Below are positions 43,368 to 45,370 of a stretch of 64,000 nt of DNA, piece after piece. Source of the stretch: Candidatus Saccharimonadales bacterium (GTDB lineage Bacteria; Patescibacteriota; Saccharimonadia; Saccharimonadales; DASZAF01); the NCBI GenBank assembly GCA_035480055.1, contig DATIIB010000006.1:73209-137208 (forward strand). The letters are read 5' to 3'. Made by a program: the position numbers and the translations under genes. A model generated the notes under the pieces. That model saw nothing but the letters and a program-made list of their open reading frames with translations. It was not told the DNA's origin and made no database searches. How positions within the stretch are numbered: the first letter of the stretch is position 1; the number at the start of each line of letters is the position of its first letter.

Positions 43368-43664
43368 TTAGTGAGTGATTAGTATAGCTACAATGGCAGA
43401 GATCGCTGATGTGATAATGGCAGCCACTACGGTTGAAACCCAAAACCGACCACTCTTTAGCAGTCGGTTCTCATATTCCTTGCCAGCATATTTCATAACT
43501 AACTCTTCAAACTCAACAGTTCCTGTATATGCAACGATCATGTCGTGAATCTTTTCTTTATATCTGTCATGCTGTAGCGCTTCAAGAATTTGATCGCCAA
43601 TAGCACTGTCGAGTGATACTGCGGGGATTTTTTGAGTTTGAGAGACCTTGCGATTTGTCATCAC
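43368..43664 (-). CDS. small tail-anchored membrane protein (hypothetical)
   Basis: 98 aa with the C-terminal TM segment FWVSTVVAAIITSAISAIVAILI. Its start directly abuts the upstream gene's stop. The locus is AT-rich. Confidence 0.55.
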   Translation of the reverse strand: MMTNRKVSQTQKIPAVSLDSAIGDQILEALQHDRYKEKIHDMIVAYTGTVEFEELVMKYAGKEYENRLLKSGRFWVSTVVAAIITSAISAIVAILITH

Positions 43665-43889
43665 CTAACTCACTTTGGCATCTTTTGATTTTTCGCTATT
43701 TTCTTTTATCTTTTCCAAGAAACCGATTGCAAGATTGATCGTCTCGTAAGGATCCTTACCTTCTATTTTGAAGAACTCTGCTAAGTCACGCAGCTGTTGG
43801 AGTGAACCATTACTAAATTCAACCACCAGCTTTTGCCTGGTTGAACCGTCGTCTTTTGACTCCTCTTCTATGTGTGATTGCGTTGGCAT
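43665..43889 (-). CDS. small protein with a ribbon-helix-helix-like pattern (hypothetical)
   Basis: 74 aa. The segment KLVVEFSNGSLQQLRDLAEFFKIEGKDPYETINLAIGFLEKI fits a beta-strand/helix/helix layout. Confidence 0.5.
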   Translation of the reverse strand: MPTQSHIEEESKDDGSTRQKLVVEFSNGSLQQLRDLAEFFKIEGKDPYETINLAIGFLEKIKENSEKSKDAKVS

Positions 43890-43977
43890 ACCTATAGTCT
43901 ACCTGATTTGTATAGCAAAAAGACAGTTTAAAATCAATTGCATTTTCGATGTTGTGAAATGTAGTCCTCGCACTGCA

Positions 43978-44006
43978 TTGACGGAGGTCATAAGAACGCT
44001 TACAAT
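43978..44006 (+). promoter_or_regulatory. sigma70 promoter TTGACG-17nt-TACAAT
   Basis: TTGACG lies at 43978-43983 and TACAAT at 44001-44006. The predicted TSS is near 44013, more than 200 nt before the next CDS. Confidence 0.6.
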
Positions 44007-44007
44007 A

Positions 44008-44272
44008 TGGGATGTACGTCAGTGCTGTCACGAGGCGTTATTACTGTAAAGTAAGTCCGGGTGTGGCATATAGACGGTACTCGGCGACCTTCCACAAATG
44101 TCGTAAGGGTTACATCTTAATAAGGTCGACTAGCCCCTGTTCTTTTATAGAAGCTAAGGCTGCAATGGAAGTCGCTTGCTGGTAACAGGAAGCACGGAGT
44201 ACGCATATTAGTAATATTGGTACAAAGACGGGCGAAGACTTAGTGTCTAAACCTGCTCGGCTTAATCTCCCA
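44008..44272 (+). ncRNA. rnpB: candidate RNase P RNA (type-A-like, reduced); flanking complementarity could extend it to 43963-44314
   Basis: Motifs are collinear with E. coli M1 RNA as I recall it. They are GTAAGTCCGGG (44051-61, CR-I GAAAGUCCGGG), CCACAAA (44092-98), GTAAGGGT (44103-10), GCTGGTAACAG (44178-88, GNRA hairpin), GCACGG (44192-97) and CGGCTTA (44258-64, CR-V). AAG(U)CCGGG pairs with GCUCGGCUU to give a P4-like helix with the bulged U. The boundaries and the 5' helices are unresolved. Confidence 0.45.
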
Positions 44273-45370
44273 ACGCGCAGTGGTTTGCAAGCATTCGTCG
44301 CAAATGCGAGGACTTGGAATCTTCCTGTGCTTTTTTCTCATGTCTTCATTTTTGTCTTGGTGATTGTGGTATTAACCACTGGCTATCAACCAAACGGTAA
44401 TCGCGCTCAAGCGAACTTGAGTAGCATCACCGCTAATAACGATAAAACTCCAACGGTTGATGAAGTGGCGTCGGTAACGATTGCGGCCTCTGTGGCCCAA
44501 AGTGCGGATTATCTGGTAGCCAACAACGTGGCTGAGCGAGCTAACTCGGTGCAGGTAAAGACCGCGCTGGCGCAATCCACCGATGCGAACTATCTGTCTA
44601 AGCCGCAGTTTGTTGACCAAGGCCAACGCCACGGCGTCACCAAGTACACAGTCAAATCTGGTGACACCGTTCCATCGGTTGCGACCAGTTTTAAACTGAC
44701 CACGCAGACCATTAAATTTTCGAACAACCTTACCTCAGATGCGCTGTCGCCTGGCCAAGAGCTGTTAATCCCGGCGGTTGATGGTATCGCCTACACGGTT
44801 AAAGCTGGTGATACCCCTGATTCTCTGGCAGCCAAATATAAGAGCGATAAAGACCGGATTGTTGCACTAAACGACGCCGAACTCGGCGGCCTGCAGCCCG
44901 GCCAATTGATTGTGATTCCTGGCGCAGTGGTTCCAGCAAATGAGCAGCCAGGCGCTTCGCGAAGCAGTAGCGTGGTGAGCTCTTCGGGCAGCTCGCTGGG
45001 AAGTGGATTTGCCTTTGGCAGCAGTCCGGTATTCGGAAGCAATGGCTATGCGTATGGGTACTGCACCTGGCACGTTGCCAACCGCCGCGCCGCTATCGGT
45101 CAACCTATTCCAAACAACTGGGGTAACGCTTCTACCTGGGCAGAAGGTGCACGTGCTATGGGTATGCGCGTTGACCACACTCCGGAGGTAGGCTCGATTA
45201 TGCAAACAGGTGGCGGATGGGGAGGCTTTGGGCACGTTGCTTTTGTTGAATCAGTGGGCGCAGATGGCACCTGGACCGTTTCGGAGATGAACTTTTCGCA
45301 CTGGGGCCCTCCTGCGACTGGCCGATCGTTTACGCCTGGCGAAGCTGGCAACTATAATTTCATCCACTAA
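44243..45370 (+). CDS. membrane-anchored peptidoglycan hydrolase: 2x LysM + C-terminal CHAP domain
   Basis: The LysM repeats are YTVKSGDTVPSVATSF...ELLIP and YTVKAGDTPDSLAAKY...LIVIPG. The CHAP region is YGYCTWHVANRR...GFGHVAFVESV. The start is uncertain: GTG 44243 overlaps the RNA candidate, and the in-frame alternatives are TTG 44285 and GTG 44327. Confidence 0.85.
   Translation: MSKPARLNLPTRSGLQAFVANARTWNLPVLFSHVFIFVLVIVVLTTGYQPNGNRAQANLSSITANNDKTPTVDEVASVTIAASVAQSADYLVANNVAERANSVQVKTALAQSTDANYLSKPQFVDQGQRHGVTKYTVKSGDTVPSVATSFKLTTQTIKFSNNLTSDALSPGQELLIPAVDGIAYTVKAGDTPDSLAAKYKSDKDRIVALNDAELGGLQPGQLIVIPGAVVPANEQPGASRSSSVVSSSGSSLGSGFAFGSSPVFGSNGYAYGYCTWHVANRRAAIGQPIPNNWGNASTWAEGARAMGMRVDHTPEVGSIMQTGGGWGGFGHVAFVESVGADGTWTVSEMNFSHWGPPATGRSFTPGEAGNYNFIH

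What the first reader, a model, noticed from the sequence alone, without database searches (positions are those of the whole stretch)
43963..44314. RNase P RNA-like element directly upstream of, and possibly overlapping, a LysM-CHAP hydrolase gene
One of only two long non-coding stretches in the window contains six motifs in the same order as in E. coli M1 RNA as I remember it. They are GUAAGUCCGGG (CR-I-like), CCACAAA (J11/12-like), GUAAGGGU, a GNRA hairpin GCUGGUAACAG, GCACGG and CGGCUUA (CR-V-like). AAG(U)CCGGG (44053-61) can pair with GCUCGGCUU (44255-63), reproducing helix P4 with its bulged U. In addition, TGGGA (44008-12) pairs with TCCCA (44268-72), and AGTCCTCGCA (43963-72) pairs perfectly with TGCGAGGACT (44305-14).

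Three things are odd:
- The specificity domain would be much reduced, with only about 40 nt between CR-I and the J11/12-like motif.
- A strong TTGACG-17-TACAAT promoter predicts a TSS near 44013, inside the putative P1 helix.
- The CR-V-like strand lies inside the ORF-track start of the hydrolase gene (GTG 44243).

So either this is a compact rnpB abutting or co-transcribed with the hydrolase gene, or it is a long regulatory leader that mimics these motifs.
Basis: partly seen in the sequence, partly recalled or inferred. Interest (0 to 1): 0.58.

Follow-up and report, generated by a model that had tools for sequence, protein, structure and literature searches.

The report
Known lysM-TM7 leader, not RNase P
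The supposed RNase P-like RNA is a divergent copy of a known but unexplained regulatory leader (lysM-TM7) ahead of a Saccharibacteria cell-wall hydrolase gene. The comparison also suggests that this RNA family starts further upstream than catalogued and that the gene probably begins at a rare AUU start codon.

Summary
No RNase P or ydaO model matches 43800-44500 even at E<=10. The only real match is lysM-TM7 (RF03005), full length at 44087-44199, with 53.7 bits and E=6e-9. That is below the Rfam cut-off of 61.5 because the P2 loop is about 21-25 nt shorter than consensus.

A covariance model (CM) built without the window also finds it (49.1 bits, E=8e-9). Ten of the 20 closest genome loci carry above-threshold lysM-TM7 at the same place.

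The two "P1" 5' arms lie upstream of the predicted transcription start. The 10-bp inverted repeat is at chance level (13.8% of shuffles) and is not conserved.

Three further points emerged:
- The gene most likely starts at ATT 44207, 7 nt after GGAG. ATT or ATC was called by one scripted search in all 78 instances with a recognisable start region, and where the contig allows it opens a 370-407-aa ORF.
- The leader has a conserved, covarying 5' helix (P0) that begins near the transcription start and is absent from the Rfam model.
- The RNA core is lost in 4 of the 9 closest relatives.

The ligand and mechanism remain unknown. Translational control is inferred, not shown.

The parts
43978..44006 (+). 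Sigma-70-type promoter: TTGACG (43978-83), 17-nt spacer, TACAAT (44001-06). Predicted transcription start about 44013-44015.
   Evidence: 10 of 12 consensus matches. Both hexamers are invariant in 9 close relatives, including those that lost the RNA. An equivalent strong promoter lies 44-105 nt upstream of the Rfam motif in 80 of the 81 leaders examined. The transcription start is inferred, not measured.
44017..44086 (+). 5' domain, not in Rfam RF03005. Long-range helix P0: CGUCAGUGCUGUC (44017-29) pairs with GACGGUACU(C)GGCG (44073-86), 13 bp with C44082 bulged. It encloses a small GNRA-capped hairpin, UUACU-GUAA-AGUAA (44041-54), and a G-rich box (44057-68). The 3' strand of P0 ends 2 nt before P1.
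   Evidence: Minimum-free-energy fold of 44014-44088. The duplex between the 5' end and the P1-proximal segment is -19.1 kcal/mol. Across 30 leaders outside the main subgroup ('group I'), each leader's own partner averages -14.8 against -8.7 kcal/mol for swapped partners, 0 of 2000 permutations. In group I, 13 of 20 pairs covary, with 56 compensatory cells against 18.9 in shuffles.
44087..44199 (+). lysM-TM7 core (RF03005 positions 1-138).
- P1: 44089-94 / 44166-71
- P1b: 44099-102 / 44158-61
- Junction GUAA: 44103-06
- P2: GGGUUA 44107-12 / UAGCCC 44131-36, with GGUCGA (44124-29) in its loop
- P3: UUCU 44140-43 / AGAA 44149-52
- P4: 44174-81 / 44186-93, with a GUAA tetraloop (44182-85)
   Evidence: Rfam cmscan gives 53.7 bits and E=5.8e-9 over the full-length model. 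My own CM, built without the window, gives 49.1 bits and E=8e-9. The window matches 34 of the 37 columns that are at least 90% conserved in 83 other members. In the family core, 18 of 28 pairs covary and 97% of cells are paired. Helix coordinates were read from the sequence.
44196..44199 (+). Shine-Dalgarno GGAG, 2 nt after P4. It forms the 3' end of the Rfam model.
   Evidence: It is conserved in the relatives.
44207..45370 (+). LysM-LysM-CHAP peptidoglycan hydrolase gene with an N-terminal membrane anchor. The proposed real start is ATT 44207, 7 nt after GGAG, rather than GTG 44243 (ORF list) or GTG 44327 (public annotation).
   Evidence: ATT 75 / ATC 3 over 78 distinct instances, chosen by one scripted pattern search as the triplet 3-10 nt after an SD-type purine run; it heads a 370-407-aa ORF wherever the contig is long enough. 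The same ATT/ATC sits in the frame of the tblastn protein match in all 20 genome loci. The in-frame stop TAA 44183-85 bounds the ORF upstream. The N-terminal peptide from ATT onward is conserved in 9 relatives. Pfam finds LysM x2 plus CHAP. P0001 begins MLFSHV..., inside the membrane helix.

Best explanation
Region 44014-44209 is the 5' untranslated leader of a LysM-CHAP cell-wall hydrolase gene in a Saccharibacteria (TM7) genome. Its core, 44087-44199, is a divergent, compact member of the lysM-TM7 RNA family (Rfam RF03005), a candidate cis-regulatory RNA or orphan riboswitch.

Shown here:
- Family membership, by covariance model, helices, conserved nucleotides, gene context and orthologous loci.
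- A covarying helix P0 that pairs the first nucleotides of the predicted transcript with the segment abutting P1.
- A GGAG directly after P4.

Strongly inferred: translation starts at the conserved AUU at 44207, so the leader ends at the initiation site.

Inferred mechanism (my estimate about 0.5): the folded leader controls translation initiation at the adjacent GGAG/AUU site, probably in response to an unknown ligand or factor. There is no room and no terminator for transcription attenuation. The weak AUU codon keeps basal output low.
For: Identity:
- The only significant Rfam match is lysM-TM7, full length, E=5.8e-9.
- An independent CM gives 49.1 bits.
- 34 of 37 conserved columns are kept.
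- All five helices can form.
- The gene is LysM x2 plus CHAP, and relatives are Saccharibacteria.
- 10 of the 20 closest genome loci carry lysM-TM7 at 73-110 bits at the same position.
- The core structure covaries.

Start codon.

P0 and the 5' domain.

No terminator-like site on the + strand between promoter and gene. The GGAG lies 2 nt after P4 and the AUU 7 nt further on.
Against: - The score is below the Rfam gathering cut-off (53.7 against 61.5).
- The P2 loop lacks about 21-25 nt, including most of the AAUAUUAAUUAA box.
- P1b is weakened (GACA changed to GGCU), and P4 has a G-G mismatch.
- Four of the 9 closest relatives have lost the core and one has lost P4, so this copy could be dispensable or decaying.
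- No ligand is known, and c-di-AMP did not bind in vitro (PMC5737381).
- Thermodynamic folds are not better than shuffles (z = -0.6).
- No consistent sequestration of the SD or start codon is predicted across 81 leaders.
- The transcription start and the AUU start are inferred from sequence only.
Confidence: 0.85

Rival explanations
1. A compact bacterial RNase P RNA (rnpB) abutting or overlapping the hydrolase gene.
For: There is a GNRA hairpin, and P4-like and P1-like complementarities are present in the sequence.
Against: - No RNase P family match in the whole window at gathering score, or in 43800-44500 at E<=10.
- Four of the six motifs are accounted for as conserved parts of the lysM-TM7 core. 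The GUAAGUCCGGG motif lies in the window's own 5' domain, and CGGCUUA lies in coding sequence.
- The 3' strands lie in a conserved peptide-coding region.
- The 5' arms of 'P1' lie upstream of the promoter's transcription start.
- The 10-bp repeat is at chance level and unconserved.
- Close relatives delete the whole core while keeping the gene. That is impossible for an essential rnpB.
Confidence: 0.01
2. A non-functional, decaying remnant of a lysM-TM7 element in a lineage that is losing it.
For: The score is below threshold, the P2 loop is truncated, and P1b and P4 carry defects. Among relatives whose proteins are 57-75% identical, L203, L205, L207 and L208 lack the core and L204 lacks P4.
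Against: All helices remain formable and 34 of 37 conserved positions are intact. P0 is strong at -19.1 kcal/mol. Relatives L206, L209, L210 and L211 keep full elements at 59-77 bits. A neutral relic would be expected to accumulate helix-breaking changes.
Confidence: 0.12
3. The leader is functional but is not a small-molecule riboswitch. It could bind a protein (for example for autoregulation or an envelope-stress factor). It could instead act as an RNA stability or 5'-end protection element, or tune IF3-dependent initiation at AUU.
For: - c-di-AMP did not bind (PMC5737381).
- P0 sequesters the very 5' end of the transcript.
- The AUU/AUC start is kept even where the RNA is lost, so the two are separable.
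- No alternative fold that sequesters the SD is detectable.
Against: The element has many invariant unpaired nucleotides in junctions and loops (CGUACG, GGUCGA, GAAA), embedded in covarying helices. By general knowledge of riboswitch anatomy, this is the usual signature of a ligand-binding aptamer. No candidate protein partner is encoded nearby.
Confidence: 0.3
4. A ydaO-type c-di-AMP riboswitch (RF00379).
For: The gene class, cell-wall hydrolases with LysM, is often controlled by ydaO riboswitches in Firmicutes and Actinobacteria (PMC5737381).
Against: There is no RF00379 match at E<=10. The element matches a different family. The family's discoverers saw no c-di-AMP binding.
Confidence: 0.02

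Closest known systems
lysM-TM7 RNA motif (Rfam RF03005; Weinberg et al. 2017, PMC5737381)
   Same: It shares the helices (P1, P1b, P2, P3 and the GNRA-capped P4) and the conserved junction nucleotides. It also shares the GGUCGA loop box, the terminal GGAG, the position in the 5' UTR of a LysM gene, and the phylum.
   Different: The P2 loop is about 21-25 nt shorter, P1b is weakened, and the score is below the gathering cut-off. The family as a whole appears to have a 5' domain (P0) and an AUU start codon. Neither is part of the Rfam model or mentioned in the paper's main text.
lysM-Actino, lysM-Prevotella and M23 motifs (same paper)
   Same: They are candidate cis-regulatory RNAs upstream of cell-wall hydrolase genes, with unknown ligands, and they tested negative for c-di-AMP.
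   Different: They have different structures and occur in different phyla. No sequence or structure match was found here.
ydaO/yuaA c-di-AMP riboswitch (RF00379)
   Same: It regulates the same functional class of genes (peptidoglycan hydrolases and osmotic or cell-wall genes).
   Different: No covariance-model match, a different architecture, and no c-di-AMP binding reported for lysM-TM7.
Bacterial RNase P RNA (RF00010/RF00011)
   Same: Only short motif resemblances and a GNRA hairpin.
   Different: No model match. The element is cis-linked to one gene, lost in close relatives, and its proposed helices are not co-transcribed or lie in coding sequence.
infC-type AUU initiation (established knowledge: E. 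coli infC and pcnB use AUU, and IF3 discriminates against it)
   Same: An Ile-codon start (AUU, rarely AUC) is conserved at a proper distance from the SD.
   Different: The gene is a hydrolase, not IF3. Dependence on IF3 is untested, so this is a functional analogy only.

Membership tests
lysM-TM7 (RF03005) | Statistically significant, full-length covariance-model match | tested here: met
   53.7 bits, E=5.8e-9, model positions 1-138. An independent CM without the window in its seed gives 49.1 bits, E=8e-9.
lysM-TM7 (RF03005) | Rfam curated gathering score of 61.5 bits (an operational cut-off, not a biological feature) | tested here: not met
   53.7 bits. The deficit is explained by the deletion of about 21 nt in the P2 loop and by the change of P1b from GACA to GGCU.
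lysM-TM7 (RF03005) | Helices P1, P1b, P2, P3 and P4 can form | tested here: met
   P1 6 bp, P1b 3 of 4, P2 6 of 6 (including one G-U), P3 4 of 4, P4 7 of 8 with a GUAA loop (sequence). The helices covary across the family.
lysM-TM7 (RF03005) | Conserved unpaired nucleotides (UGUCG-A-G junction, GGUCGA, GAAA-type junction, GNRA loop, GGAG) | tested here: met
   34 of 37 columns that are at least 90% conserved are identical. GGUCGA is at 44124-29.
lysM-TM7 (RF03005) | AU-rich box AAUAUUAAUUAA in the P2 loop | tested here: inconclusive
   Only UUAAUAA remains (44117-23). The 5' part of the loop is deleted.
lysM-TM7 (RF03005) | Located in the 5' UTR of a LysM-domain gene, on the same strand, in TM7/Saccharibacteria | tested here: met
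   LysM x2 plus CHAP. Saccharibacteria relatives and source MAG. Ten orthologous loci carry above-threshold hits at the same place.
lysM-TM7 (RF03005) | Regulatory function or ligand | not testable with these tools
   The family itself is an orphan. No c-di-AMP binding was seen (PMC5737381).
Bacterial RNase P RNA (RF00010/RF00011) | Covariance-model match including the P4 core and conserved regions CR-I to CR-V | tested here: not met
   No hit at gathering score in 64 kb, or at E<=10 in 43800-44500.
Bacterial RNase P RNA (RF00010/RF00011) | P1 and P4 long-range helices lie within one transcript and are conserved or covarying | tested here: not met
   The 5' arms lie upstream of the transcription start, and the 3' arms lie in a conserved coding region. 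The repeat is at chance level and absent from relatives.
Bacterial RNase P RNA (RF00010/RF00011) | Essential gene retained in related genomes | tested here: not met
   The core region is deleted in L203, L205, L207 and L208.
Bacterial RNase P RNA (RF00010/RF00011) | A clear rnpB elsewhere in the same genome | not testable with these tools
   Only 64 kb of the 491-kb contig is available. There is none in the window.
ydaO c-di-AMP riboswitch (RF00379) | Covariance-model match | tested here: not met
   No hit at E<=10.

The most novel reading that the evidence does not exclude
lysM-TM7 is really a two-domain leader of about 200-250 nt. It begins at the transcription start, with a covarying P0 helix and a 5' domain missing from RF03005, and it ends at a conserved AUU initiation codon. 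If the 5' domain is part of the ligand-binding fold, and if the constructs originally tested lacked it, the published negative binding tests may not be decisive. I could not check which constructs were used. The element could then be a new riboswitch class, or an initiation-factor-sensitive switch, that gates a cell-wall hydrolase in Saccharibacteria.
Probability: 0.25. Interest if true: 0.6.

Novelty: new member of a known kind. Interest (0 to 1): 0.3.

Why it matters
For this window the result is mostly clarifying. The element is a sub-threshold member of a catalogued orphan RNA, not a reduced RNase P.

It has three practical consequences:
- **Rfam cut-off.** The Rfam cut-off misses a whole divergent sub-lineage, including the window, L001, L002, L005 and others.
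- **Gene annotation.** Saccharibacteria LysM-CHAP hydrolase genes are systematically mis-started by gene callers, because the likely start is AUU or AUC. The public protein for this gene lacks its first 40 residues and starts inside its membrane anchor.
- **Re-testing the family.** Anyone re-testing lysM-TM7 for a ligand should use constructs that include the 5' P0 domain.

Cell-wall remodelling is central to the epibiotic lifestyle of Saccharibacteria. A dedicated RNA control on this hydrolase is therefore biologically relevant, though not surprising.

Tried and rejected
- **RNase P and ydaO.** The Rfam gathering scan of the whole window found nothing. The E<=10 scan of 43800-44500 found only lysM-TM7 plus two chance hits.
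- **RNAalifold on plain MAFFT alignments.** This recovered only P4. I therefore trimmed the variable loops, built CM R1 and realigned.
- **Thermodynamic folding of the window leader.** z-scores were -0.6, not better than shuffles, so it is uninformative alone.
- **A conserved fold sequestering the SD or start codon.** Base-pair probabilities in 81 full leaders gave mean P(paired) of 0.43 for the SD and 0.39 for the AUU, with no consistent partner.
- **The local hairpin over the start codon (44199-44223).** It has -5.2 kcal/mol, is specific to the window and is not conserved.
- **Pairings checked by eye.** I looked at P2-loop box with start region, junction CGUACG with codon 2, G-box with P1 5' strand, and P3 5' strand with the SD. 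None showed convincing covariation, and none was pursued.
- **The -2 codon (ACG or ATG) as the universal start.** Rejected because it varies (ACG, ATG, ACT, AAG, ATA, AGG, GTT, TAC) and lies only 1 nt from GGAG.
- **The group-I 5'-domain model R2.** It does not detect the window's 5' domain. Support for P0 in the window rests on the partner-swap test and on its near relatives.
- **Literature.** No follow-up on the lysM motifs, and nothing on AUU starts in Saccharibacteria, in the held library. The supplement listing the tested constructs is not held.
Full report
**Observation.** The perfect 10-bp inverted repeat 43963-72/44305-14 exists, and so does the TTGACG-17-TACAAT promoter at 43978-44006. 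The description is accurate. The question is what the pieces add up to.

**Not RNase P, not ydaO.** An Rfam scan of the whole 64-kb window at gathering thresholds returns nothing. A permissive scan of 43800-44500 (E<=10) returns no RNase P and no ydaO match.

The long-range helices that would make an RNase P fold do not hold up:
- The 5' arms at 43963-72 and 44008-12 lie upstream of the transcription start predicted from the promoter, about 44013.
- The 3' arms at 44255-63, 44268-72 and 44305-14 lie inside the coding sequence.
- 13.8% of dinucleotide shuffles of the 601-nt region contain a perfect inverted repeat of 10 bp or more.
- None of nine close relatives keeps that complementarity.

**What it is.** The one significant Rfam match is lysM-TM7 (RF03005) at 44087-44199 on the + strand. 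It covers the full-length model at 53.7 bits and E=5.8e-9, below the curated cut-off of 61.5. The downstream ORF is a LysM-LysM-CHAP hydrolase. Its relatives are all Candidatus Saccharibacteria, and the source is MAG GCA_964479845.1.

Of the 20 closest genome loci, 10 carry lysM-TM7 at 73-110 bits immediately upstream of the orthologous gene. I built a covariance model (CM), R1, from those ten loci and left the window out. It finds the window at 49.1 bits, E=8e-9, as the only hit in 64 kb. It also finds weaker versions in the closest protein relatives L005, L002 and L001.

In a joint alignment of 84 distinct members, the window is identical at 34 of the 37 columns that are at least 90% conserved. 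The family's core structure is strongly supported. 97% of cells are paired, against 32-49% when partners are slid. 18 of 28 pairs show compensatory change. One caveat applies: that alignment is fitted to the model.

**Anatomy in the window.**

| Element | Coordinates |
|---|---|
| P1 | 44089-94 / 44166-71 |
| P1b | 44099-102 / 44158-61 (weakened, GGCU instead of GACA) |
| Junction GUAA | 44103-06 |
| P2 | GGGUUA 44107-12 / UAGCCC 44131-36 |
| GGUCGA box in the P2 loop | 44124-29 |
| P3 | 44140-43 / 44149-52 |
| P4 | 44174-81 / 44186-93, GUAA tetraloop, one G-G mismatch |
| GGAG | 44196-99 |

The P2 loop is about 21-25 nt shorter than consensus, which explains the sub-threshold score.

- CCACAAA is the end of P1 plus the junction.
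- GUAAGGGU is the junction plus P2.
- GCUGGUAACAG is the tip of P4.
- GCACGG is the end of P4 plus the SD.

The other two lie outside it. GUAAGUCCGGG lies in the 5' domain described below. CGGCUUA is codons (Ala-Arg-Leu-Asn).

**Start codon.** GTG 44243 has no SD, while the GGAG sits 44 nt upstream of it. In the 20 genome loci, an ATT (ATC in 2) lies 6-8 nt after the GGAG-type SD and sits in the frame of the tblastn protein match. I re-placed two loci by hand where the script had picked a later site.

Across all 78 distinct motif instances with a recognisable start region, one scripted search gives ATT 75 times and ATC 3 times. The search takes the first ATT/ATC/ATA or canonical start that lies 3-10 nt after an SD-type purine run and is followed by [CA]G[TC]. 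Three further instances did not fit the search. Wherever the contig is long enough, that triplet opens an ORF of 370-407 aa.

In-frame stops occur 0-53 codons upstream. The next canonical start can be up to 178 codons downstream, beyond the membrane anchor.

In the window the stop is TAA 44183-85 and the ATT is 44207. Nine relatives at 57-75% protein identity keep GGAG-N6-8-AT[TC]. They also conserve the peptide from the Ile onward (I[SR]x[IL]xTK...).

Gene callers disagree widely on these genes. The public protein for the window (P0001) starts at GTG 44327 inside the membrane helix, and others run upstream through the RNA. I conclude that the gene starts at AUU 44207. This is inferred, not shown.

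**A 5' domain not in the Rfam model.** In 80 of the 81 distinct leaders examined, a promoter matching 9-12 of 12 consensus positions lies 44-105 nt upstream of the Rfam motif start.

- **Largest subgroup ("group I").** The transcript begins AGCACAUUUGUG..., which pairs with ...CAUAAAUGAGC ending at Rfam position 2, directly next to P1. RNAalifold finds this helix. 96% of cells are paired against about 40% when slid. The variable inner part covaries: each leader's own partner gives -4.1 against -2.7 kcal/mol for swapped partners, 0 of 2000 permutations. A dedicated CM, R2, finds it in 52 loci, with 13 of 20 pairs and 56 cells compensatory against 18.9 in shuffles.
- **Other subgroups, including the window's clade.** The same 5'-end-to-P1-proximal pairing holds over 30 leaders: -14.8 against -8.7 kcal/mol, 0 of 2000 permutations. 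One caveat: the two segments overlap in the shortest leaders.
- **In the window.** P0 is 44017-29 / 44073-86, 13 bp with one bulge, at -19.1 kcal/mol. Inside it are a small GUAA-capped hairpin (44041-54) and a G-rich box (44057-68).

The whole interval from the predicted start to the AUU, about 195 nt, is therefore one structured leader.

**Evolution.** The promoter, the GGAG and the AUU are kept in all nine close relatives, and synteny is YceG/MltG, then LysM-CHAP, then Obg. The RNA core, however, is deleted in L203, L205, L207 and L208, and P4 is deleted in L204. L206, L209, L210 and L211 keep it at 59-77 bits. The element is dispensable on short evolutionary time scales. The window's compact copy could be either functional or on its way out.

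**Mechanism.**
- Shown: the SD follows P4 by 2 nt and the AUU lies 7 nt further on. There is no terminator-like site on the + strand.
- Inferred: control acts on translation initiation or on mRNA stability, not on transcription attenuation.

I could not find a conserved alternative pairing that hides the SD or the AUU. The small hairpin over the start codon is specific to the window. The many invariant unpaired nucleotides set in covarying helices suggest a ligand-binding RNA. The family's discoverers saw no c-di-AMP binding (PMC5737381), and the constructs they used are not available to me. A weak AUU start would keep basal hydrolase synthesis low. By analogy with infC, it could also make synthesis sensitive to IF3. 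That analogy rests on established knowledge and is untested here.

**Comparison and novelty.** This is a divergent new member of a known family, RF03005. Failing the Rfam gathering score is an operational miss, not a failed defining feature. The 5' domain and the AUU start are properties of the family that I did not find described. The main text of the 2017 paper does not mention a start codon, and no follow-up exists in the held library. They are refinements rather than a new kind of system.

**Verdict.** The RNase P interpretation is refuted, and the fallback "regulatory leader" interpretation is confirmed and given a name. Interest is modest at 0.3. The most novel reading still open has a probability of about 0.25. 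In it, lysM-TM7 is a two-domain riboswitch-like leader whose full-length form has not been tested.

Noticed in passing
window 44207-44327 (and P0001-P0012): The public annotation of this gene starts at GTG 44327, inside the membrane helix (347 aa instead of 387 aa). Homologues are called with very different N-termini, some reading upstream through the RNA. The likely reason is that the probable start is AUU or AUC.
   Followed up: yes
L203, L205, L207, L208 (core lost); L204 587-702 (P4 lost): The closest relatives (63-75% protein identity) have deleted the lysM-TM7 core but kept the promoter, the GGAG and the AUU/AUC start. In L205 the leader is only about 25 nt long.
   Followed up: yes
window 43368-43664 (-) and 43665-43889 (-): Two small ORFs (98 and 74 aa) lie between yceG/mltG and the LysM gene, oriented divergently from the LysM gene. 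They have no Pfam match. In six of the nine relatives examined the called YceG gene is the last upstream gene, but L203 and L204 carry a minus-strand gene there (93 aa in L204).
   Followed up: partly
L016, L029, L014, L018, L023, L047 (upstream of match): LysM-CHAP loci with no CM hit still show GGAG-N6-8-ATT (or ATA) followed by AGT AAC ('ISN...'). The Ile-codon start is therefore wider than the detectable RNA. Oral TM7 loci (L026, L032-L045) seem to use ATG instead.
   Followed up: partly
family alignment A10; window 44117-23 versus 44204-15: The AU-rich box in the P2 loop (AAUAUUAAUUAAU) resembles, in the same sense, the start region (GAUAAUUCGUAAU). In L209 both contain AUUAGUG. This could be mimicry of the initiation region or just AU-rich coincidence.
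   Followed up: no
window 44199-44223: An imperfect 12-nt-arm hairpin, GUACGCAUAUUA/UAAUAUUGGUAC, covers the AUU start codon (-5.2 kcal/mol, 12 of 200 shuffles as good). It is not conserved in relatives.
   Followed up: yes
codon 2 of the gene, window 44210-12 and family: The second codon is almost always CGT or AGT (Arg or Ser). The G and T are conserved at nucleotide level while the amino acid changes. This hints at an RNA-level or initiation-context constraint.
   Followed up: no
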